24,821 nucleotides of DNA, taken from IMG/VR virus record IMGVR_UViG_3300023290_000014. One strand, written 5' to 3'. Positions 9,505 to 24,580 of the stretch are shown here, piece by piece. How positions within the stretch are numbered: the first letter of the stretch is position 1; the number at the start of each line of letters is the position of its first letter. This DNA comes from a virus (taxonomy: Duplodnaviria; Heunggongvirae; Uroviricota; Caudoviricetes). The notes beneath the pieces are model-generated. The model was not told the origin of the DNA and did no database searches. It saw only the letters and a list, made by a program, of their open reading frames with translations. The translations under genes and the position numbers were made by a program.

Positions 9505-11271
9505 ATGAACACCACACTGACACCCGCAGATCTCGATCCCCGTCGGCAGGCCATGCTGCTGTACTTTCAGGGATACCGCGTAGCCCGCATTGCTGAAATG
9601 CTGGGCGAGAAAGTTGCAACCGTTCACAGCTGGAAAAAACGCGACAAGTGGGGTGACTATGGGCCGCTGGATCAGATGCAGCTCACCACCGCCGCACGCT
9701 ACTGCCAGCTCATTATGAAGGAGCACAAAGAAGGGAAAGATTTCAAAGAGATTGACCTGCTGGCGCGCCAGTCGGAGCGCCACGCGCGGATCGGCAAGTT
9801 TAACAATGGCGGCAACGAAGCCGACTTAAACCCTAACGTCGCCAACCGCAACAAAAGCCCGCGCCGTCAGCCGGAAAAGAATGTTTTCACCGATGAACAG
9901 ATTGAGAAACTGGAAGAAATCTTCCATTCCTCTATGTTCAACTACCAGCGCCACTGGTGGGAAGCCGGAAAAACCAACCGCATCCGCAACCTGCTGAAGT
10001 CACGCCAGATCGGCGCGACCTTTTACTTTGCCCGTGAAGCCCTGATTGACGCCCTTCTGACCGGACGTAACCAGATTTTCCTTTCCGCCAGTAAGGCACA
10101 GGCCCACGTTTTTAAACAGTACATCATCGACTTCGCCAAAGAAGTGGAGGTGGAGCTGAAAGGCGATCCGATGGTGCTTCCCAACGGGGCCACACTGTAT
10201 TTCCTCGGCACCAATGCCCGCACGGCCCAGAGTTACCACGGCAACCTGTATCTGGATGAATATTTCTGGATACCGAAATTCCAGGAGCTGCGCAAAGTGG
10301 CTTCCGGTATGGCTATTCACAAAAAATGGCGACAAACCTATTTTTCCACGCCATCAAGCCTTACCCACAGTGCTTATCCGTTCTGGTCCGGTGCGCTGTT
10401 CAACCGTGGCCGCAACAAAGCCGACAAGGTGGACATTGACCTGTCACACAACAATCTGGCCCCCGGCCTGCTGTGTGCAGACGGGCAATACCGCCAGATA
10501 GTCACCGTGGAAGATGCAGTGCGCGGCGGCTGTAACCTTTTCGACCTCGATCAGTTGCGCATGGAGTACAGCCCGGACGAATACCAGAACCTGCTGATGT
10601 GCGAGTTTGTGGACGATCTCGCGTCCGTGTTCCCGCTCAGCGAGCTGCAGGCGTGCATGGTGGACAGCTGGGAAGTCTGGACCGACTTTCATGCACTGGC
10701 CCTTCGCCCGTTTGGCTGGCGCGAAGTGTGGATCGGTTATGACCCGGCAAAAGGTACGCAGAACGGCGACAGCGCCGGATGCGTGGTGGTGGCACCGCCA
10801 GCCGTGCCGGGCGGTAAGTTCCGCATTCTTGAGCGTCACCAGTGGCGCGGGATGGACTTCCGCGCCCAGGCGGACGCCATCAAAAAATTGACCGAACAGT
10901 ACAACGTGACCTATATCGGCATCGACTCGACCGGCGTCGGTCACGGGGTTTATGAGAACGTGAAAGCGTTCTTTCCTGCCGTCCGGGAGTTTGTCTACAA
11001 CCCCAATGTTAAAAACGCCCTGGTACTCAAGGCCTACGACATTATCAGCCACCGCCGTCTGGAGTTTGACGCCGGGCACACCGACATTGCGCAGTCATTT
11101 ATGGCAATCCGTCGCGCCACCACCGCCAGCGGCAACCGCCCGACCTATGAAGCCAGCCGCAGCGAAGAAGCCAGCCACGCCGATCTGGCCTGGGCAACAA
11201 TGCACGCACTGTTTAACGAACCGCTTCAGGGCGAATCCGCCAATACCAGCAATATTGTGGAGATTTTTTGA
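9505..11271 (+). CDS. P: Terminase ATPase (large) subunit gpP
   Basis: 588-aa ORF divergent from O, with N-terminus (MNTTLTPADLDPRRQAMLLYFQGYRVARIAEMLGE...) matching P2/186 terminase ATPase as recalled. Overlaps Q start (ATGA). Confidence 0.9.
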   Translation: MNTTLTPADLDPRRQAMLLYFQGYRVARIAEMLGEKVATVHSWKKRDKWGDYGPLDQMQLTTAARYCQLIMKEHKEGKDFKEIDLLARQSERHARIGKFNNGGNEADLNPNVANRNKSPRRQPEKNVFTDEQIEKLEEIFHSSMFNYQRHWWEAGKTNRIRNLLKSRQIGATFYFAREALIDALLTGRNQIFLSASKAQAHVFKQYIIDFAKEVEVELKGDPMVLPNGATLYFLGTNARTAQSYHGNLYLDEYFWIPKFQELRKVASGMAIHKKWRQTYFSTPSSLTHSAYPFWSGALFNRGRNKADKVDIDLSHNNLAPGLLCADGQYRQIVTVEDAVRGGCNLFDLDQLRMEYSPDEYQNLLMCEFVDDLASVFPLSELQACMVDSWEVWTDFHALALRPFGWREVWIGYDPAKGTQNGDSAGCVVVAPPAVPGGKFRILERHQWRGMDFRAQADAIKKLTEQYNVTYIGIDSTGVGHGVYENVKAFFPAVREFVYNPNVKNALVLKAYDIISHRRLEFDAGHTDIAQSFMAIRRATTASGNRPTYEASRSEEASHADLAWATMHALFNEPLQGESANTSNIVEIF

Positions 11272-12302
11272 TGGGAAAGAGTAAGAAGAACCGCGCTGCG
11301 GCGACGAAACAGATCCAGCTTAAAAGTCAAACTACAGCCGAAGCATTCAGCTTCGGCGATCCCGTTCCTGTTCTGGACCGCCGAGAACTGCTGGATTATG
11401 TGGAATGCGTACAGATGGACCGCTGGTATGAGCCGCCCGTCAGCTTTGACGGACTGGCGCGCACCTTCCGCGCTGCCGTGCATCATAGTTCCCCGATTGC
11501 AGTAAAGTGCAACATTCTGACCAGCACCTACATCCCTCACCCGCTGCTCAGCCAGCAGGCTTTTTCGCGTTTTGTGCAGGACTATCTGGTATTTGGTAAC
11601 GCCTACCTGGAGAAACGCACGAACCGCTTCGGTGAAGTTATCGCCCTTGAACCTGCCCTGGCAAAATACACCCGACGCGGGTTAGACCTGGATACCTACT
11701 GGTTTGTGCAATACGGTATGACAACCCAGCCGTATCAGTTCACGAAAGGCAGCATTTTTCATCTGATGGAGCCGGACATCAACCAGGAGATCTACGGCCT
11801 GCCCGGTTATCTTTCTGCCATTCCGTCCGCCCTGCTCAACGAGTCCGCCACGCTGTTCCGCCGCAAGTATTACATTAACGGCAGTCATGCAGGCTTCATC
11901 ATGTACATGACCGATGCCGCGCAGAACCAGGAGGATGTGAACAACCTCCGCAATGCGATGAAAAGCGCCAAAGGCCCTGGCAACTTCCGCAATCTGTTTA
12001 TGTACTCGCCTAACGGCAAAAAGGACGGACTTCAGATTATCCCGTTGTCAGAAGTCGCAGCGAAGGATGAGTTTCTGAATATCAAGAACGTGAGCCGTGA
12101 TGACATGATGGCTGCGCACCGCGTGCCGCCGCAAATGATGGGGATAATGCCTAATAATGTTGGGGGGTTTGGGGATGTGGAGAAGGCTAGTAAGGTATTC
12201 GTAAGAAACGAATTGATATCAATGCAAAAACGGATCAAGGAGATTAATGTCTGGTTAGGTACAGATATTATCGCATTTACAGAATATAACTTAGATATGT
12301 AA
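11268..12302 (+). CDS. Q: Portal (capsid vertex) protein gpQ
   Basis: 344-aa ORF, the exact length of P2 gpQ, translationally coupled to P. Confidence 0.9.
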   Translation: MMGKSKKNRAAATKQIQLKSQTTAEAFSFGDPVPVLDRRELLDYVECVQMDRWYEPPVSFDGLARTFRAAVHHSSPIAVKCNILTSTYIPHPLLSQQAFSRFVQDYLVFGNAYLEKRTNRFGEVIALEPALAKYTRRGLDLDTYWFVQYGMTTQPYQFTKGSIFHLMEPDINQEIYGLPGYLSAIPSALLNESATLFRRKYYINGSHAGFIMYMTDAAQNQEDVNNLRNAMKSAKGPGNFRNLFMYSPNGKKDGLQIIPLSEVAAKDEFLNIKNVSRDDMMAAHRVPPQMMGIMPNNVGGFGDVEKASKVFVRNELISMQKRIKEINVWLGTDIIAFTEYNLDM

Positions 12303-12351: not shown

Positions 12352-14109
12352 TTATACTTTGCACCTCTTTGAATAATCTGCAATAATTTCCTCAATACCA
12401 TCAAAAATAACTTTAAACCTTTCAAAACTAATTGTTTTACAATTTGCCTTTATAACCTTTGTTGAAAACACATGCTTACCATATTCTGTTTTTGTATCCG
12501 TATCATTAGATTTATTAAATGTCTTTCCATCAAGCACCGTTGATAGTACCGTGCTATCAAATAAATCCTCCATACAAGACTCTTTCCCTCCAGGAAGCAA
12601 TGGTGTTAATAACAAATAGAGATTGTCAAATATGTGGGTATACCTTGCCTTACGAATAGTATCAACATCATTTGGACAATTTTTTACTTTATCCTTTAAG
12701 TGATTTAATAAATCTTTAGGGCCTGAGTCATTATCAAGAAGCATAATAACAGGGTGCTTTGGTTTAAATTTCTCGAACCTCTTTTTTTGTTCTTGGTATC
12801 TTAATATAAATCTTTTGAAGTCTGTAGCACCGCCAGAAATGTCAAGAAAATAGCTTGTTTTTTCAGTTGCTTTAAAAAAATTAACACGATACTCATTTTT
12901 AGAGCTATCATCAGAAGAATTAAACAATAAAGGATATGAATTCGCCAATGACTTCAAAGCACACTTTAAATATACACGGTCTGTTTTACCCTCAGTGAGT
13001 ATTGTTGGCATTTCCATTCCATGAAAATTTTTATAGTATAGAAAATAACTGTAGGCTTTTTCTCTCGAATTCAATTTTGCAGTGTAGTTTAATCCATGAT
13101 TTACACTTTGGTACTTTTCCAACTGTCTTGCGTTCTTTAGTTTTAAATTATTATATTTATCTATTGAGTCAATGAATCCAAAACGGCCTTCTAATTTAGC
13201 ACATGTACCTTTTTCAATCTTTCCTGATTCAGTAACAATAACAAAAGAACCATCTTTATAAAGAGAATGAGCCATGGCACGCGTTACTTTTGCATATTCT
13301 TTGCCAACATTCACTTTTTTATTAACAGTCAACCCAGTAACATCTTGTCGTGATGTTTTATAACAAACCCTTGTCTTTTTATCATTTATTTTAAAGCCAG
13401 CCTTTATAATCTCTTTAATTAAAGTTGGACTTAGGGTTACAGACTCTCCGCCAACATCAGCAATCTCTTTTGGAAATGTTTTTTTATTAGTTGAAAATGT
13501 AAGATCATCAGCATACCGTGAATAATTGCATCCGTATTTCTTTGCTAACTTTGATAATCTTATATCAAGAACTCCACTAATTAAGTTACTTATAATTGGA
13601 GAGCATGGGCTTCCTTGAGGAAGTCCATTCTGAAAACATGCAATTTGTGCGATCGTTGTAGCAACAGTATTATTTAATCTAAAATCTCTGTTTGATAAGA
13701 AAAAACCTCTAACACGTCCAAAATTAAAACTATCAAAATAATCCTCAAGGTCTATATTTAGTAGTAGCGTTTTACCTCTATGCCGTTCAGCATGCGTAAT
13801 AATTGACTTTTCTTTTTCAAACCCATGAGATAAAACTGGATTAATATTATATTTTTTATAAATTTCTGCACGACATAAATATAAAACATCAGCTAATCTA
13901 CGTTGAATATCTTTGAGCTTAGTGGTAGGTGCTGATATGACTCTCGGCGCTCCGTTTTTTTTAGGGATAGTAAATTGTGTATACTGCGTTTCAGCTTTTA
14001 AACGATAAATAACATCCGTAAGAAAAGCAGTTTTAAGATTCAAGATACTAGCCAAATCTTGCCTGTTAGCAGCGTTTTGTAAACGTTCTAAAATTGATAG
14101 GGGTGCCAT
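12352..14109 (-). CDS. Retron-type reverse transcriptase fused to a C-terminal TOPRIM-like domain
   Basis: 585-aa ORF with the RT active-site motif YADD (NYSRYADDLTFS) and the retron-typical VTG motif (QDVTGLTVN). C-terminal extension carries TOPRIM-like acidic motifs (ILTEGKTDRVYL and VIMLLDNDSGPKD). Visibly AT-rich compared with flanking phage genes. Confidence 0.8.
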   Translation of the reverse strand: MAPLSILERLQNAANRQDLASILNLKTAFLTDVIYRLKAETQYTQFTIPKKNGAPRVISAPTTKLKDIQRRLADVLYLCRAEIYKKYNINPVLSHGFEKEKSIITHAERHRGKTLLLNIDLEDYFDSFNFGRVRGFFLSNRDFRLNNTVATTIAQIACFQNGLPQGSPCSPIISNLISGVLDIRLSKLAKKYGCNYSRYADDLTFSTNKKTFPKEIADVGGESVTLSPTLIKEIIKAGFKINDKKTRVCYKTSRQDVTGLTVNKKVNVGKEYAKVTRAMAHSLYKDGSFVIVTESGKIEKGTCAKLEGRFGFIDSIDKYNNLKLKNARQLEKYQSVNHGLNYTAKLNSREKAYSYFLYYKNFHGMEMPTILTEGKTDRVYLKCALKSLANSYPLLFNSSDDSSKNEYRVNFFKATEKTSYFLDISGGATDFKRFILRYQEQKKRFEKFKPKHPVIMLLDNDSGPKDLLNHLKDKVKNCPNDVDTIRKARYTHIFDNLYLLLTPLLPGGKESCMEDLFDSTVLSTVLDGKTFNKSNDTDTKTEYGKHVFSTKVIKANCKTISFERFKVIFDGIEEIIADYSKRCKV

Positions 14110-14557: not shown

Positions 14558-15277
14558 TTAGCCAAAGCAGAAACCAATATTGCAATTTGAAACTCCACAG
14601 TTGTGAAATTGATGTGGACCTACTCTTAGCTTGTGTTCGTCTCCTACAATCCGAGTCCCCTTAACCAACATATCTAATCTTTCCACAATCAATCTTTCAG
14701 GCGCATCAACTTTAATAATTAAACGAGGACCTTTCCTTTTTTCTATAATAGTTATTCTAGGACCGACAACCTGAACATCCCAATGCCTTGCACTACAAAC
14801 CCACTCATTCTTAATTAATTCAAGATTAACAATACCTTGACTATCGTAAAATTTACCCGAAATAAGAAAAGCATTATTTTCTTTTTCAATGGTTAACAAT
14901 GGCTCATTTTGAAACATTATTGGTACAGTACAGGATTCAAACGTCGCACCACCAAATATTATTGTTGGATGCCTATCAGAAAAGTCCAATATATCGGCCA
15001 CATTCCCTTTTTGTAAGGCTGCAGGAGATTCCATTGCTTTAATTATTTTCTCTTTAGAGTAAAGACGTTTCGTTACTTTCGCATGGCACGTAGGACAAAG
15101 TAGTGCTATTGCATTTGGAGAGTGCTCCTTTGCATCAGCGTATGTGGGAATTACATGCTCATACTCAACAATGGGAGAAGCACAAACAACGCAACCGAAG
15201 CCACAGCGCTGCCTTACCTCCAGTTTTACAGGTTCAGGAATTGTTCTAGATAACCCATGCTTGTTAATAGTTGTCAT
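14558..15277 (-). CDS. Uncharacterised HNH-motif nuclease-like protein (cargo gene)
   Basis: 239-aa ORF with AAGG/AGGT ribosome-binding site 5-8 nt upstream of ATG. N-terminal HNH-like zinc-binding signature (CGFGCVVCASPIVEYEHVIP...NAIALLCPTCHAKV) and a Cys/His-rich C-terminus (HQFHNCGVSNCNIGFC). AT-rich. Confidence 0.6.
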   Translation of the reverse strand: MTTINKHGLSRTIPEPVKLEVRQRCGFGCVVCASPIVEYEHVIPTYADAKEHSPNAIALLCPTCHAKVTKRLYSKEKIIKAMESPAALQKGNVADILDFSDRHPTIIFGGATFESCTVPIMFQNEPLLTIEKENNAFLISGKFYDSQGIVNLELIKNEWVCSARHWDVQVVGPRITIIEKRKGPRLIIKVDAPERLIVERLDMLVKGTRIVGDEHKLRVGPHQFHNCGVSNCNIGFCFG

Positions 15278-15985: not shown

Positions 15986-18400
15986 TTAATACAGGTTTCG
16001 CCACTTATCATCTTCCTGCAAACGCTGGTTCCGATAGAAGATACGCAGGCCTGCTCCTGACGGAATACTGCCGCAGCGAAGGAGTAAATCGACCTCTTTC
16101 TCGCTGCCATCAAATCCTCTGGACTTCAGTTCATAGACGAGCTGCTGTCGCTGATGGTCTGTAATTCGCTGTTTGTAGTCTTTACGCCGTTTCGGTTTCA
16201 CCAGGCGTAACCTTGCAGCCAGTTCCCGGCGCTCTTTTTTGCTCATACTGTGCAGGTAATCGTGCAACTCCTTGTCATCCATGCGGGTAATGTCCGTCCT
16301 GGTATCCCCATCAGCTGATTTGTCTTTCCCTTGTTGGTTCAAATTTTCAGCAAGGGGACAGTTATTGCCACGAGTCCAAGGGGCGCAAGCGCCCTGGTCG
16401 GCTGCCGCCTCCTGAACGTCAACGGCCTTACGAACCATTTTCCACTTCACTGCATGAGTGCAGATCTTGCCCTCTGCAATGGGTGACCAGATGCCATAAA
16501 TACGAATACCGTGATCGCCATAGGCGGTTGGCTCTTCGTTGATTTCATAAGCGGTTCTGATGAGGTGATATTTGCGGGGAACCAGTACGCCGCCCTGCTT
16601 CATGATGTAGGTGGCAAAACAACCAGCATCAGCAGCAGCCAGAATGGCATCAAGACGCGGGTTATCCAGTACCGGCGCACCTGCTTTTTTGTCACCCTGT
16701 TGCCTTGCCGCCTGACCAGCCAGCAAGCGAAGTTCACGGTAAGCCTGACGTCCCGGAATACCAAAGAAGCGGAATTGCTGAACACGATGCAGAGACGCCC
16801 AGGCATTAACGTATTCAGCGTTATCACGCAGGGATTTACCCGTTTCCTTGCTGATCTCGCCAGCCAGACCACGCCCGTCAATGTTCTTACTGATGTATTT
16901 CGCGATGTAGCTTGTCGGCGTTCCTTTGCGCGGGTTTATCAGCTCAGATTTAAAGCGTGGACCAGTGTTATTACCCAGTTCCTCGCGGTCTTCACGGATG
17001 GCAAACTTACGCAACAATGCAGTAATGGCGCGGCGGTCTTTTTTGCGCATGAAACACAACAGGTGCCAGTGAACTGTACCGTCATGATGCGGCTCAGCCA
17101 CCCGCACGCCATACCAGCGCAACCCGGCTTTGTGCATCGCCTTACGAAATGCAGCAAACATGCCGACCAGATAATCACTGCTTTGTCTTACCGTCGCATT
17201 TGTCCAGGTTGGGTTTGGTCTGCCGTTATTGAGCGTGGAATGGAAACGTGACGGACAGGTAATGGTGTAGAAAACGGCGCAGTCACCGCGCATTTCCGCG
17301 ATAAGCTCCAGACCTTTAACACAGGCCATCATCTCATTGCGGCGGTGCGCCGGGTTGCTGCTGCTGGCGTTTACCACGTCTTCCATATCCAGCGTGTCGC
17401 CCTCTTCGTTCACCAGTTCATGAGAACGGAAAAACTCCAGTGACTTGCGGCGCTGCTCACGTTTATGCATCACGGCTTCATAGCTGACATAGGGAGATGC
17501 TTTTTTGCTGACCAGGCAGACAGCACGCAACTGCTCTTCCCGCCATTCGCAACGCATTTTCCATAATTTCCGGTACCACCAGTCGGCGCACAACATACGC
17601 GCCAGCGAACCCGGAATGAGTTCATAGGGCACGGGTTTACGGCGGTTTCTTTTCCGACGGAGTTGCTCAAACGCAGGCGGGATGACATCCAGACGCAGGG
17701 TTTCCGCTGCCACCTTTTCCCATGTCTTGCGGATTTCTTCTGGCTTAACGTCATCGGTGGCATACAAATCACCACAAGCTGCATCAAGGCACATGCTCAT
17801 ATGCGCAGCGACAAGGGTAGACAGGCGTTTCACCTGATCCTGACTCATTTCAGGCAGAATCAGCAGGCCGTCCAGCCCTACATGGCTTGCCATAAAACGA
17901 AAAGATGCAGATAGCTGGCTGTCGCGTACATGCTCCAGTCGTTCCAGACATGGCTTAATCGTCTCACGTAAATAGCGGGAATAAGCCTTTGGCCTGCCCA
18001 GGCTGCTGAAGTATTCAATACGTTGCATCAGCGGCTTGCTGATATGGGAGGGCTGGGCGCTGACATCTGCCAGAATGACCATGTCCGGGTTAAAACGCTG
18101 CTGCTCATGCGCCAACTTTGCCCGGCTAATGAGCTTATCCTGCTCTATTTCGCGTTGGACAGGATCACGGGATTCATTAAAGAAATAACGCTCCCAGACC
18201 TGATCACTCAGTGCCTCGCGGCGCAGTTGTTCCTGCTCGTTATCGGCAGCGTACAGAGTGATCAGGTTTGAAAGCGCAGAAACCGGCGCAACTTCCGCCG
18301 GGTCCAGATAAGGGTTAATGGCCTTTTTCGGGCTGTTCCATGAGAACGATGCGGCAGCCTCGTTAAAGCCGCAGCAGTTGCTCATATCGGCATGGCTCAT
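15986..18400 (-). CDS. A: Replication initiation protein gpA (rolling-circle HUH endonuclease)
   Basis: 804-aa ORF with HUH motif (VHWHLLCFM) and a catalytic tyrosine pair (SYIAKYISK). Start overlaps the Dam stop (ATGA). Confidence 0.85.
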
Positions 18401-21055: not shown

Positions 21056-21128
21056 GATGCAACATCTCCTATTGGCTTGTGGTGAGCCTGTAGTAATCGT
21101 GACAAGTACCCAAATGGGGACAAAATTG

Positions 21129-21157
21129 ATACTAGGATCGCAAAAGAGATATGTCAA
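21129..21157 (-). promoter_or_regulatory. Near-consensus sigma70 promoter (candidate lytic promoter pR)
   Basis: Minus strand reads TTGACA, a 17-nt spacer, then TAGTAT. The -35 hexamer (21152-21157) overlaps the cI start codon; the -10 hexamer is at 21129-21134. It points toward apl. Confidence 0.55.
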
Positions 21158-21747
21158 CATCAAAGTACCCAAATGAAATCAAAATAAATCCCAATAAAGG
21201 TGGTAAGGCTGCGATTGAGCGATTAGTCGAAGCTTATGGCTTTACGACACGACAGGCTTTAGCTGATCACTTGGAAGTATCAAAAAGCACTCTGGCGAAC
21301 AGGTATTTGCGGGATACGTTTCCTGCAGACTGGATAATCCAATGTGCTCTTGAAACAGGAACCTCACTGAAATGGTTAACCACCGGGCAAGGCCTTAAGC
21401 AAAGCTCGCTGACAGCAGCTACAGAAGAGCTTGCCAAGTTTCGCCTTACCGCAGGCAAAATGATTGAAGATGGTTCATATGTCTTCGATTCATCATTTCT
21501 TCCTGCAAATCTTTCATCACCAATTGTTATTCAGGATGGGCTCGTCACATACATTTGTGATCAAAAATTTTCTGAAGTACTTGATGGGCACTGGTTAATC
21601 AACATCGACGGAACCTATTCCATTCGAAAAATCACAAAGCTTCCAAAAGGTATGATTAAAATTACAAGTACAGAGAATAGCTTTGAATGTGCATTTTCTG
21701 ATATTGAAGTAGTTGCTTGTATAAGAAGTACAATAGTTTCAAATTAA
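21151..21747 (+). CDS. cI: CI-type immunity repressor (186 CI-like)
   Basis: 198 aa with an N-terminal HTH region (RLVEAYGFTTRQALADHLEVSKSTLANRYLR) and a C-terminal oligomerisation-like domain. Divergent from apl and upstream of int. Confidence 0.7.
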   Translation: MSTSKYPNEIKINPNKGGKAAIERLVEAYGFTTRQALADHLEVSKSTLANRYLRDTFPADWIIQCALETGTSLKWLTTGQGLKQSSLTAATEELAKFRLTAGKMIEDGSYVFDSSFLPANLSSPIVIQDGLVTYICDQKFSEVLDGHWLINIDGTYSIRKITKLPKGMIKITSTENSFECAFSDIEVVACIRSTIVSN

Positions 21748-21767: not shown

Positions 21768-23444
21768 ATGAATTCATTTTCCATCGTTATATTCTTATTA
21801 GCATTTCTCGCCCCCATTCTAGCTGTAATATTATTTAAGCAAAGCAAAAAACATAAAGCGGCTATAAATACCTTGACAGCTAACAACATAGCCCTTTCCA
21901 ACCAACTGAAAGAAAATCAAGAAGAATTAGCACAGACTGTACGAGATCTATCAGAGCTTGAAGGACGAGCTGCGCCATTATGGCAATACGTAGAATTGCA
22001 CAGCGCAGTGATGGAAGCAGAGAATAAGATAAAAAATGCAGACTCAATAGCCAGGCAAAAAATAGAAGAAGCCCAAATAAAGGCTGCTAAGACAGTAAAC
22101 GAAGCAAATTATCAAGCTCAGATAAAAATAAGCAACGCTAATAGCGAAGCTATAGCAATTACTAAAGACGCTCGCGATGCACGCCTGAAAGCTAAAGAAC
22201 GTCTTGATAATGCCAATAGTAAAGCAAATGAGCTGATCTCAAATGCTAATGACAATGCAGTGAAAATTATTTCCGATGCAGAAGAAAGAGCAAAAGAGAT
22301 TGCTGGTTCAGCATATGAAGCTAAAGAGTTTGCAGAAAAATATGAAGCAGTTGCCAAATCAATGAAAAATAAAATTGAAGGTTATGGTGATGAATGGATC
22401 ATCCCTAACCGTAGCGTTCTCGATGAATTGGCAGAAAATTATGAGTTTACAGATGCAGGTAAGGAATTACAAAAAGCCAGGGAGTTAACAAAATCATTAA
22501 TAAAAACTAATAAAGCTGCTTCGTGTGATTATGTTGAACAAAACAGGCGTAATACTGCTATCAACTTTGTTTTAGATGCCTTCAATGGAAGAGTTGACAG
22601 TATTTTATCAAAAGTCAAACACAACAATTTTGGAAAACTTTCCCAAGAGATAAAAGATGCGTTTCAACTTGTAAATTACAATGGTTCTGCCTTTAGGTCC
22701 GCAAAAATAAGTGACATCTATCTTCAAGCTCGACTCAACGAGCTAAAATGGGGAGTTGCAGTTAATGAAATTATGCTCGAAGAAAAAGAAGAGCAAAGAA
22801 GGATTAAAGAACAACTTCGTGAAGAGGAAAGAGCTCGTAGGGAGTATGAAAAAGCGATAAAAGAAGCTGAAAAAGAAGAGAAAGCTATTCAGCAAGCTAT
22901 AAATAAAGCAACAAAAGAGCTTATGCTTGCAAATGAAGAACAACGCTTAGCTTTAGAGCAAAAAATAGCTGAACTACAGTTAAAATATGAAGAAGCTGAA
23001 GCTAAAAACCAACGAGCTATTTCTATGGCTCAACAAACTAGATCAGGCCACGTTTATATAATTAGTAATATTGGCTCATTTGGCGAAGATGTATATAAAA
23101 TTGGAATGACACGCCGCCTTGAACCACTTGATCGTGTTCGTGAACTCGGTGATGCTAGTGTTCCTTTTTCGTTCGATGTTCATGCGATGATTTATAGTGA
23201 TGATGCACCATCATTAGAAAATCATCTGCATAAAGTCTTCAACGAAAAACAGGTCAATAAAATTAACTCACGAAAAGAGTTTTTCAACGTAAATATTAAA
23301 GAAATTAAGTCTGTTATTGAAGATATGAACATCAACGCACAATGGACAATGTTTGCGGAAGCGAAAGAATATAGAGAGTCACTGGCGATTGAGCAAGAGC
23401 GCAAAGCAGCAACTTCCGCCAACGATGAACTGCATGTTGCTTAG
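21768..23444 (+). CDS. Membrane-anchored coiled-coil protein with C-terminal T5orf172/GIY-YIG-like domain (cargo; candidate defence or abortive-infection gene)
   Basis: 558 aa: N-terminal TM helix (FSIVIFLLAFLAPILAVILF), a long charged coiled coil, and a C-terminus with the T5orf172 pattern (VYIISN...YKIGMTRRLEPLDRVRELGDASVPFSFDVHAMI...KEFFNV). Strongly AT-rich, starting 21 bp after the cI stop. Confidence 0.6.
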   Translation: MNSFSIVIFLLAFLAPILAVILFKQSKKHKAAINTLTANNIALSNQLKENQEELAQTVRDLSELEGRAAPLWQYVELHSAVMEAENKIKNADSIARQKIEEAQIKAAKTVNEANYQAQIKISNANSEAIAITKDARDARLKAKERLDNANSKANELISNANDNAVKIISDAEERAKEIAGSAYEAKEFAEKYEAVAKSMKNKIEGYGDEWIIPNRSVLDELAENYEFTDAGKELQKARELTKSLIKTNKAASCDYVEQNRRNTAINFVLDAFNGRVDSILSKVKHNNFGKLSQEIKDAFQLVNYNGSAFRSAKISDIYLQARLNELKWGVAVNEIMLEEKEEQRRIKEQLREEERARREYEKAIKEAEKEEKAIQQAINKATKELMLANEEQRLALEQKIAELQLKYEEAEAKNQRAISMAQQTRSGHVYIISNIGSFGEDVYKIGMTRRLEPLDRVRELGDASVPFSFDVHAMIYSDDAPSLENHLHKVFNEKQVNKINSRKEFFNVNIKEIKSVIEDMNINAQWTMFAEAKEYRESLAIEQERKAATSANDELHVA

Positions 23445-23503
23445 CAATGTATGTTTCATAGTAATCACACATTGATTACTGGTTGTATATACAGTTAAAT
23501 TTA

Positions 23504-23527
23504 GCCCTCTGATATGAGGGCTTTTTT
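23504..23527 (+). terminator. Rho-independent terminator abutting the int start codon
   Basis: Stem GCCCTC/GAGGGC with a 6-nt loop (tgatat), followed by TTTTTT that runs directly into the int ATG at 23528. Confidence 0.5.
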
Positions 23528-24580
23528 ATGGCAGTACGAAAACTCACCACAGGAAAATGGCTTTGCGAATGTTACCCCGCCGGACGTAGTGGACGTCGTG
23601 TGCGTAAACAATTCGCCACCAAAGGCGAAGCTCTGGCTTTTGAGCGTCACACGATGGAAGAAACCGAAGCAAAGCCCTGGCTGGGTGAATCAGTGGATCG
23701 TCGAACACTGAAAGACGTGGTTGAACTATGGTTCAAACTACATGGTAAATCTCTGACAGCTGGGCAGCATGTCTATGACAAATTGCTGTTGATGGTTGAC
23801 GCTCTGGGCAATCCTCTTGCAACCGATCTCACCTCTAAAATGTTTGCCCACTATCGAGATAAACGCCTGACAGGCGAGATCTACTTCAGCGAGAAATGGA
23901 AGAAAGGAGCAAGCCCGGTCACCATTAACCTGGAGCAAAGCTATCTAAGTAGTGTTTTTAGCGAACTATCCCGTCTGGGCGAATGGTCGTATCCGAACCC
24001 ACTGGAGAACATGCGAAAATTCACCATCGCAGAAAAAGAGATGGCATGGCTTACCCATGAGCAGATTGTTGAATTGCTGGCTGATTGCAAACGTCAGGAC
24101 CCAATTCTGGCACTGGTAGTTAAGATATGCTTAAGCACAGGCGCACGCTGGCGTGAAGCCGTAAATCTTACTCGCTCACAGGTGACCAAATACCGAATTA
24201 CCTTTGTCAGAACGAAGGGGAAGAAAAACAGAAGCATCCCTATCAGTAAAGAGCTTTACGAAGAGATCATGGCGCTTGATGGGTTCAATTTCTTCACAGA
24301 CTGCTATTTTCAATTTTTATCCGTGATGGAAAAAACGTCTATCGTGCTCCCTCGCGGTCAACTCACACACGTTCTGCGCCATACGTTTGCGGCGCACTTC
24401 ATGATGTCGGGTGGAAACATTCTGGCCTTACAAAAAATTCTCGGACACCACGATATAAAAATGACTATGCGTTACGCACATCTGGCACCGGATCATCTGG
24501 AAACGGCGCTCCGTTTCAATCCTCTGGCAACGCTGCCAAGTGGCGACAAAGTGGCGGCAGCGGTTGGCATTACCCCGTAA
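23528..24580 (+). CDS. int: Tyrosine integrase (P2/186 family)
   Basis: 350 aa with the catalytic signature (ARWREA, HVLRHTFAAH, MTMRYAHL). Last phage gene before the flanking sequence. Confidence 0.9.
   Translation: MAVRKLTTGKWLCECYPAGRSGRRVRKQFATKGEALAFERHTMEETEAKPWLGESVDRRTLKDVVELWFKLHGKSLTAGQHVYDKLLLMVDALGNPLATDLTSKMFAHYRDKRLTGEIYFSEKWKKGASPVTINLEQSYLSSVFSELSRLGEWSYPNPLENMRKFTIAEKEMAWLTHEQIVELLADCKRQDPILALVVKICLSTGARWREAVNLTRSQVTKYRITFVRTKGKKNRSIPISKELYEEIMALDGFNFFTDCYFQFLSVMEKTSIVLPRGQLTHVLRHTFAAHFMMSGGNILALQKILGHHDIKMTMRYAHLAPDHLETALRFNPLATLPSGDKVAAAVGITP

What the first reader, a model, noticed from the sequence alone, without database searches (positions are those of the whole stretch)
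21768..23444. AT-rich cargo gene between repressor and integrase: TM + coiled coil + T5orf172/GIY-YIG-like domain
In P2/186 the repressor and integrase genes are adjacent, as I recall. Here a 558-aa gene of strikingly different (AT-rich) composition sits between them, co-oriented with cI and so plausibly expressed in the lysogen. It encodes a single N-terminal transmembrane helix, a long charged coiled coil, and a C-terminal domain with the T5orf172 pattern (a GIY-YIG-like putative nuclease fold). A membrane-tethered nuclease-like protein expressed from a prophage immunity region is the profile of a superinfection-exclusion or abortive-infection effector. I know of no characterised system with this exact architecture, but I cannot exclude one.
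Basis: partly seen in the sequence, partly recalled or inferred. Interest (0 to 1): 0.8.

Follow-up and report, generated by a model that had tools for sequence, protein, structure and literature searches.

The report
Prophage SNIPE membrane nuclease defence gene

Summary
ORF 21768-23444 (+) encodes 558 aa at 36.8% GC, against 49.9% for the window. It has an N-terminal transmembrane helix, about 200 residues of long helix, a DUF4041 domain and a C-terminal T5orf172/GIY-YIG domain. It lies 20 bp after cI and 83 bp before int.

The architecture is already characterised. PADLOC matches PD-Lambda-1 at E=4.7e-120. That system was found by Vassallo 2022 and renamed SNIPE by Saxton 2026 (Nature), who showed an inner-membrane-anchored GIY-YIG nuclease that cleaves siphovirus DNA during injection. 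It gives direct defence, not abortive infection. RefSeq already labels this gene "SNIPE associated domain-containing protein".

It is cargo, not core. About 1135 of 5426 complete E. coli genomes carry this integrase and 166 carry the gene. It travels with one cI allele as an AT-rich block (cI C-terminal domain plus SNIPE), also in Klebsiella and Salmonella.

Verdict: a correct find of a known kind, of low novelty.

The parts
21099..21126 (+). Promoter-like site (GTGACA-16-CAAAAT) just upstream of cI. It is the candidate pL-type lysogenic promoter that would drive cI and the downstream SNIPE gene.
   Evidence: Consensus scan only. Sites in the region are not enriched over shuffles (4 found, 8.3 expected). 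The position matches the pL-cI-int operon annotated in phage 186. Inferred, not shown.
21151..21747 (+). cI immunity repressor, 198 aa. Its C-terminal half from about 21400 belongs to the same AT-rich variable block as the SNIPE gene.
   Evidence: Phage_CI_repr 8e-32 and Phage_CI_C 4e-27. GC is 45.3% in the N-terminal half and 34.0% in the C-terminal half. Homology to other cI alleles stops at 21392-21403. This allele is in 171 E. coli genomes, against 166 for the SNIPE gene.
21768..23444 (+). SNIPE / PD-lambda-1 family gene, 558 aa.
   Evidence: ORF. PADLOC PD-Lambda-1 at 4.7e-120 and 2.1e-116. PHROG 1847 at 4e-132. BLASTP to the reference-type SNIPE gives 49% identity over 293 aa, E=5e-77. 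RefSeq names it 'DUF4041 / SNIPE associated domain-containing protein'.
21777..21836 (+). Transmembrane helix, aa 4-23 (FSIVIFLLAFLAPILAVILF), followed by KQSKKHK. [quoted passage not shown]
   Evidence: Kyte-Doolittle mean 2.99 over 19 residues; coordinates. The same position and topology were shown experimentally for reference SNIPE with PhoA-LacZalpha fusions.
21837..22379 (+). Cytoplasmic helical stalk, aa 24-204, with an 11-residue repeat across roughly aa 85-185. This is the variable 'adapter' region of the family.
   Evidence: AF2 helices 3-133 and 138-204. Self-identity at lag 11 is 0.27, against a background of about 0.08. Identity to reference SNIPE is 13 of 95 aligned residues. No Pfam family reaches its cut-off. 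Relatives of aa 25-264 number 322 cluster representatives, and all 10 sampled are DUF4041 proteins.
22416..22733 (+). DUF4041 (now Pfam 'SNIPE') domain region. The Pfam core is aa 267-322 (22566-22733). In the reference protein this domain binds DNA and contacts the tape measure protein.
   Evidence: PF13250 at 3.1e-12. AF2 shows a compact helix/strand domain at aa 217-315. Identity to the reference in this region is only 24/122. The domain's function comes from Saxton 2026.
22713..23042 (+). Long charged linker helices, aa 316-425.
   Evidence: AF2 helices 316-387 and 390-425. Identity to the reference is 46/95.
23046..23351 (+). GIY-YIG (T5orf172) nuclease domain, aa 427-528. The catalytic Glu E484 is encoded at 23217-23219.
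23503..23522 (+). Terminator-like hairpin (AGCCCTC-TGATAT-GAGGGCT followed by TTTTT) ending 5 nt before the int ATG. It may limit read-through from cI-SNIPE into int.
   Evidence: Pattern scan and sequence. It lies in the int-upstream DNA that is shared at 96-98% identity with relatives lacking SNIPE, so it belongs to the int module and not to the cargo. Its function is inferred.
23528..24580 (+). Tyrosine integrase, 350 aa, marking the right-hand edge of the variable slot.
   Evidence: Int_N 3e-32 and Phage_integrase 7e-22. It is present in about 1135 of 5426 complete E. coli genomes. Homology with relatives resumes at 23445-23465.

Best explanation
The gene encodes a SNIPE-family (PD-lambda-1) direct-defence nuclease carried as lysogenic-conversion cargo by a 186-like (P2-family) prophage of E. 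coli.

Proposed mechanism:
1. The gene is transcribed with cI from the lysogenic promoter, so the protein is made constitutively in the lysogen.
2. [quoted passage not shown]
3. Anchoring keeps the GIY-YIG nuclease away from the chromosome.
4. When a phage that injects through a tape-measure-protein channel delivers its DNA, the stalk and DUF4041 region dock at the injection site and bind the incoming DNA. In the reference system the susceptible phages are siphoviruses.
5. The GIY-YIG domain, with catalytic Glu E484, cuts that DNA. The infection fails and the cell survives.

The carrier is a myovirus, a class the reference SNIPE does not restrict.

Shown here: the architecture, the conserved catalytic residues, the GIY-YIG fold, family membership by profile and the cargo status. 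Shown only for the reference homologue: membrane localisation, cleavage during injection and tape-measure contact. Inferred: co-transcription with cI and the phage range of this variant.
For: Family and domains:
- PADLOC PD-Lambda-1 at E=4.7e-120, covering profile positions 35-481 of 491.
- Pfam DUF4041, T5orf172 and MUG113, all above cut-off.
- 49% identity, E=5e-77, to the 500-aa E. coli protein. That protein matches all nine residues named in Saxton 2026 and the 1503-nt length of PD-lambda-1.
- E484 aligns with the catalytic E414, and the GIY/YIG/R/E/N positions are invariant in 86 homologues.
- The TM helix is at aa 4-23 with a positively charged C-terminal flank, as in the reference.
- The full-length model is elongated: TM, helices, DUF4041, helices, nuclease. 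This matches the published description.

Published mechanism.

Context:
- A 20-nt gap after cI, with an SD-like AAGGA before the ATG.
- In 186, cI and int form one lysogenic operon.
- The gene is in 166 of 5426 E. coli genomes, against about 1135 with this integrase.
- The same cI-SNIPE-int order occurs in Klebsiella and Salmonella.
Against: - No experiment exists for this 558-aa subfamily.
- Overall identity to the tested protein is only 35%.
- The parts thought to set specificity are very divergent: the N-terminal stalk at 13/95 identical and the DUF4041 region at 24/122, with a 12-residue deletion. Phage range, ManYZ association and tape-measure contact therefore cannot be transferred.
- Structure confidence is moderate, with pLDDT 72.6 for the whole protein and 73.4 for the domain.
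- Co-transcription with cI rests on spacing and analogy. The promoter scan is not enriched over shuffles.
Confidence: 0.88

Rival explanations
1. The protein belongs to the SNIPE family but has a different target. Its divergent stalk and DUF4041 region would direct the nuclease to another DNA-entry route, such as other phage morphotypes, a different inner-membrane receptor than ManYZ, or conjugative DNA.
For: The N-terminal stalk is about 14% identical to the reference and the DUF4041 region about 20%. Saxton 2026 argue that these regions diversify to set specificity. At the position of W257, where W257R strengthened Bas14 tape-measure binding, this protein has Lys (K327).
Against: No direct evidence. 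[quoted passage not shown] The simplest expectation is therefore siphovirus targeting again.
Confidence: 0.25
2. The protein is an abortive-infection or toxic effector. On infection the nuclease is released or activated against the host chromosome and kills the cell.
For: Reference SNIPE without its TM helix is highly toxic and cuts host DNA, so the nuclease can act on the chromosome.
Against: With the TM helix intact, the reference gives full cell survival at high multiplicity of infection and was explicitly contrasted with the Abi system PD-lambda-3. The TM helix is present here.
Confidence: 0.05
3. The gene has no defence role. It would be a 'chromosome segregation ATPase', as the GenBank phage records label it, or a selfish homing-type GIY-YIG endonuclease gene that inserted next to cI.
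For: GenBank records for phages KP12 and vB_EcoM-813R9 call it 'chromosome segregation ATPase'. There are weak sub-threshold hits to SMC and DivIVA profiles. The AT-rich composition suggests foreign origin.
Against: There is no Walker A motif. The SMC and DivIVA scores are far below their cut-offs, 15.5 against 729 and 23 against 260, which is typical coiled-coil noise. The full-length profile match to a tested defence protein is strong. The membrane anchor and DUF4041 are not features of homing endonucleases. The left boundary of the variable block lies inside cI, which points to module exchange and not to site-specific insertion.
Confidence: 0.03

Closest known systems
SNIPE (PD-lambda-1) of E. 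coli ECOR26. Vassallo et al. 2022 Nat Microbiol (PMC9519451); Saxton et al. 2026 Nature (PMC13190303).
   Same: - The same order of parts: N-terminal TM helix, helical region, DUF4041, long linker helix, C-terminal GIY-YIG/T5orf172.
- The catalytic Glu is conserved (E484 = E414).
- The nuclease domain is 67% identical and the linker 48%.
- It is a single-gene system.
- It is prophage-borne.
   Different: - 558 aa against 500 aa.
- The stalk is about 70 residues longer and carries 11-residue repeats.
- The stalk and the DUF4041 region are only about 14% and 20% identical, and a 12-residue stretch before the DUF4041 core is missing.
- It sits in the cI-int slot of a 186-like myovirus prophage. 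The reference-type copy examined here sits in a lambdoid prophage next to ren.
- It has not been tested experimentally.
Defence hotspot between the cI repressor and integrase in K139-like P2-related Vibrio prophages (Rousset et al. 2022, PMC9122126).
   Same: The slot has the same position, between cI and int, in a P2-family temperate phage, and it holds interchangeable defence cargo.
   Different: This case is the enterobacterial 186-like lineage. The variable block also includes the C-terminal domain of cI, so each cargo is tied to a cI allele. The other occupants seen here, a 63-aa ORF and 314/349-aa proteins, have no PADLOC or Pfam match.
Classical P2 lysogenic-conversion loci (tin/old between the replication endonuclease and the portal; Z/fun).
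   Same: They are prophage cargo that protects the lysogen from other phages. The first of these loci is also occupied in this window, by a retron RT-Toprim.
   Different: The locus, the gene family and the mechanism are all different.
Other GIY-YIG/T5orf172 defence proteins (PADLOC PDC-S57; PD-T4-3).
   Different: Only the nuclease domain matches. The matches do not extend to the TM helix, the stalk or DUF4041.

Membership tests
SNIPE / PD-lambda-1 | Full-length profile match to the family model | tested here: met
   PADLOC PDLC03976 at E=4.7e-120, aa 114-550 against profile positions 35-481 of 491. PDLC03977 at 2.1e-116.
SNIPE / PD-lambda-1 | Central DUF4041 (Pfam PF13250, now named SNIPE) domain | tested here: met
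   PF13250 at aa 267-322, E=3.1e-12, 46.6 bits against a cut-off of 27. The new Pfam name appears.
SNIPE / PD-lambda-1 | C-terminal GIY-YIG nuclease domain with the catalytic Glu (E414 in the reference) | tested here: met
SNIPE / PD-lambda-1 | Membrane targeting by an N-terminal TM helix (present in about 66% of homologues) | tested here: met
   Hydropathy of 2.99 over aa 4-23, with a Lys-rich flank after it. This is a prediction only; localisation was not tested.
SNIPE / PD-lambda-1 | Significant pairwise similarity to the experimentally tested protein | tested here: met
   BLASTP gives 49% identity over 293 aa, E=5e-77, to the 500-aa protein that carries all nine residues cited in the paper. 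No pairwise similarity is detectable in aa 1-264.
SNIPE / PD-lambda-1 | Direct, non-abortive protection against phage that depends on the nuclease; cleavage of DNA during injection | not testable with these tools
   Needs plaque assays, an E484A mutant and labelled-DNA injection assays.
SNIPE / PD-lambda-1 | Association with tape measure protein or ManYZ | not testable with these tools
   The regions implicated are only 14-20% identical to the reference.
GIY-YIG nuclease superfamily | beta-beta-alpha-beta-alpha core with GIY and YIG motifs, Arg, Glu and Asn | tested here: met
SMC / chromosome segregation ATPase (the GenBank label on the phage copies) | Walker A ATPase head and a score above the family cut-off | tested here: not met
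   No Walker A motif. SMC_prok_A scores 15.5 bits against a cut-off of 729.

The most novel reading that the evidence does not exclude
This widespread 558-aa subfamily could be a functionally distinct SNIPE. Its hendecad-repeat stalk and strongly diverged DUF4041 region might recognise a different injection apparatus or inner-membrane partner, giving a phage range the reference lacks. Its fixed linkage to one cI allele, through a shared AT-rich block of cI C-terminal domain plus SNIPE, might reflect a functional coupling between immunity type and defence cargo and not mere hitch-hiking.
Probability: 0.2. Interest if true: 0.45.

Novelty: already known. Interest (0 to 1): 0.15.

Why it matters
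The case shows that a reader working from sequence alone can recognise a real defence gene by its architecture. The gene family, its mechanism and its database labels already exist.

Two points add modest value.
- A divergent SNIPE subfamily, common in Enterobacteriaceae, is fixed in the lysogenic operon of 186-like prophages. It offers a natural test of how the variable stalk and DUF4041 regions set phage specificity.
- The cI-int slot of enterobacterial 186-like prophages is a variable cargo locus whose other frequent occupants match nothing known. They are candidates for undiscovered defence genes.

Tried and rejected
- NCBIfam: only sub-threshold coiled-coil hits to DivIVA_Wag31 and SMC. 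Rejected as composition noise.
- Pfam on the N-terminal 264 aa at E<=10: nothing near a cut-off.
- PDB sequence search with the family profile: only coiled-coil noise and no solved relative.
- Rfam over the whole window: no hits.
- DNA tandem-repeat search for the 11-residue protein repeat: only a trivial 12-bp array. The repeat is visible only at protein level.
- The accession RCP76574.1 of the original PD-lambda-1 could not be confirmed among the few accessions listed. Identity of the comparison protein rests on length and the 9/9 residues named in the paper.
- WP_001084068 was not found in the stored supplements of Saxton 2026. Whether this exact protein is in their homologue list is unknown.
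- 'Chromosome segregation ATPase' and homing-endonuclease readings were rejected; see the rival explanations.

Full report
**1. Observation**

It runs 21768..23444 on the + strand, starts with ATG and encodes 558 aa. It begins 20 nt after the stop codon of a cI repressor gene at 21151..21747, which matches Phage_CI_repr and Phage_CI_C. It ends 83 nt before a tyrosine integrase gene at 23528..24580. An AAGGA sits 9 nt upstream of the ATG.

The gene is 36.8% GC, against 49.9% for the window and 48.6% for int. The C-terminal half of cI is 34.0% GC and its N-terminal half is 45.3%.

In phage 186 itself, cI and int abut with no gene between them.

**2. Anatomy of the protein**

- Residues 4-23 (FSIVIFLLAFLAPILAVILF) have a Kyte-Doolittle mean of 2.99 and are followed by KQSKKHK. 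This predicts a single-pass anchor with the bulk of the protein in the cytoplasm.
- An AlphaFold2 model built on 86 homologues (mean pLDDT 72.6) shows these elements, in order:
  - continuous helices at 3-133 and 138-204;
  - a compact helix/strand domain at about 217-315;
  - two long helices at 316-387 and 390-425;
  - a beta-beta-alpha-beta-alpha domain at 427-528.
- Pfam places DUF4041 at 267-322 (3e-12), T5orf172 at 427-520 (9e-17) and MUG113 at 443-520 (2e-19).
- The stalk carries an 11-residue repeat across roughly aa 85-185. Self-identity at lag 11 is 0.27, against a background of about 0.08.
- There is no Walker A motif. The label 'chromosome segregation ATPase' on the phage GenBank copies is therefore a misannotation driven by coiled-coil composition.

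**3. What it is**

PADLOC matches PD-Lambda-1 at E=4.7e-120 and 2.1e-116 over nearly the whole profile. PD-lambda-1 came out of the functional selection of Vassallo et al. 2022. [quoted passage not shown]

Saxton et al. 2026 (Nature) renamed it SNIPE. Their main findings were these:
- The DUF4041 domain binds DNA.
- E414A in the GIY-YIG domain abolishes defence.
- Removing the TM helix makes the nuclease attack the chromosome.
- The protein cleaves phage DNA during injection.
- It associates with ManYZ and with the tape measure protein.
- It protects against siphoviruses but not myoviruses or podoviruses.
- Defence is direct and not abortive.

RefSeq already names copies of the window gene 'SNIPE associated domain-containing protein'. 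Pfam PF13250 now carries the name SNIPE.

**4. Direct comparison with the tested protein**

I used a 500-aa DUF4041 protein from a lambdoid prophage of E. coli 118UI as the reference. Its gene has the same 1503-nt length as PD-lambda-1. The protein has all nine residues named in the paper: E223, N250, L253, W257, E264, K305, I308, T319 and E414.

BLASTP of the window protein against it gives 49% identity over aa 265-555, E=5e-77, and nothing before residue 265. Identity by region, from a multiple alignment:

| Region | Identical / aligned |
|---|---|
| TM helix | 6/28 |
| Stalk | 13/95 |
| DUF4041 region | 24/122 |
| Linker | 46/95 |
| GIY-YIG | 70/105 |

The divergent N-terminal part is not foreign to the family. 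Residues 25-264 have 322 cluster representatives at E<=1e-3, and all ten sampled carry DUF4041. This fits the published finding that the N-terminal region is the most variable part of SNIPE homologues in both sequence and length.

**5. Context: cargo or core?**

The window is a 186-like (Peduoviridae) prophage of E. coli integrated beside rcdA. The SNIPE gene is 100% identical to that of strain L73.

Counts among 5426 complete E. coli genomes:

| Feature | Genomes |
|---|---|
| This integrase type | 1135 |
| SNIPE gene | 166 |
| This cI allele | 171 |
| 63-aa ORF type from the same slot | 628 |
| 314-aa type from the same slot | 116 |

Adjacency to int was checked only in the sampled loci. Relatives at the same attachment site carry other cargo between cI and int:
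- a 63-aa ORF with a 189-aa cI;
- a 314-aa protein with a 292-aa cI;
- in Klebsiella phage 4LV2017, a 349-aa protein with a 313-aa cI.

Homology with these relatives breaks at 21392-21403, inside cI at the junction between the HTH domain and the C-terminal domain. It resumes at 23445-23465, just after the SNIPE stop codon. The exchanged unit is therefore the cI C-terminal domain plus SNIPE, which is exactly the AT-rich block.

The same order of 198-aa cI, 558-aa SNIPE and int occurs in Klebsiella and Salmonella at 84-85% protein identity. Two sequenced phages carry it at 96-97% DNA identity. The gene is cargo, but it is tightly linked to one immunity allele.

A cI-int defence hotspot has already been reported for K139-like P2-related Vibrio phages.

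**6. Expression**

The 20-nt spacing, the shared orientation, the SD-like sequence and the pL-cI-int operon of 186 argue for co-transcription with cI in the lysogen. A promoter-like site lies upstream of cI at 21099-21126. However, the scan is not enriched over shuffles and found no separate site upstream of the SNIPE gene.

A terminator-like hairpin at 23503-23522 sits immediately before the int ATG. It lies in DNA shared with relatives that lack SNIPE.

All of this section is inference.

**7. Mechanism and rivals**

The best explanation (confidence 0.88) is a SNIPE-type membrane-anchored nuclease that cuts incoming phage DNA at the injection site and spares the cell.

- The main open point is specificity, because the stalk and the DUF4041 region are so divergent. 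A different target range is the most interesting rival (about 0.25, and compatible with family membership).
- Abortive infection is unlikely, given the reference phenotype and the intact TM helix (0.05).
- Non-defence readings are rejected (0.03).

**8. Novelty and score**

The kind of system, its mechanism and its database labels are all published.

I rate it 'already known', with interest 0.15. The residual value lies in this untested, common subfamily and in the uncharacterised alternative occupants of the same slot.

Noticed in passing
window 12352-14109 (-): A 585-aa reverse transcriptase matches PADLOC retron RT-Toprim type I-C at E=2e-221. It lies in the classical P2 defence hotspot between the portal gene (11268-12302) and the replication endonuclease gene (15986-18400). 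Strain L73, whose SNIPE gene is identical, carries three different genes at this spot. Rfam found no msr/msd RNA.
   Followed up: partly
window 14558-15277 (-): A 239-aa HNH endonuclease (PF01844, 2e-5) with no PADLOC match lies next to the retron in the same hotspot.
   Followed up: partly
window 21392-21403 and 23445-23465: These are the breakpoints of the variable module. cI is mosaic: its HTH half is 82-85% identical to other alleles, while its AT-rich C-terminal half is exchanged together with the downstream cargo gene.
   Followed up: yes
window 23503-23522 (+): A strong terminator-like hairpin with a T-run overlaps the int start region. It is conserved in relatives lacking SNIPE and could uncouple int from the cI transcript, unlike in phage 186, where cI and int abut.
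   Followed up: partly
L005 4121-4312; L007 3465-4409; L002 2268-3317: The same cI-int slot in related prophages holds a 63-aa ORF (628 E. coli genomes), a 314-aa protein (116 genomes) or a 349-aa protein (Klebsiella phage 4LV2017). None has a Pfam or PADLOC match. They are possible uncharacterised defence or exclusion genes. The 292-aa cI that accompanies the 314-aa protein has two Phage_CI_repr HTH stretches.
   Followed up: partly
window 22020-22325 (aa ~85-185 of the SNIPE protein): An 11-residue (hendecad) repeat of the form xAxxxAxxxIx occurs in the helical stalk. It is visible at protein level (lag-11 identity 0.27) but not as a DNA tandem repeat.
   Followed up: partly
OM835953.1 and ON470620.1 (L001 3769-5445): GenBank phage records annotate this gene as 'chromosome segregation ATPase', and JGI names relatives 'vacuolar-type H+-ATPase subunit H'. 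Both labels are coiled-coil artefacts, since there is no Walker A motif.
   Followed up: yes
P0304 (565 aa): This relative of the N-terminal region has DUF4041 at aa 222-277 but no T5orf172/MUG113 hit at E<=1e-4. It may be a SNIPE-like protein with a different C-terminal effector.
   Followed up: no
P0052 and P0066 (477 aa): Many database entries (164 member sequences) call a shorter 477-aa form that starts downstream and lacks the TM helix. The 558-aa form is the one conserved across genera, so the short calls look like start-codon misannotations.
   Followed up: no
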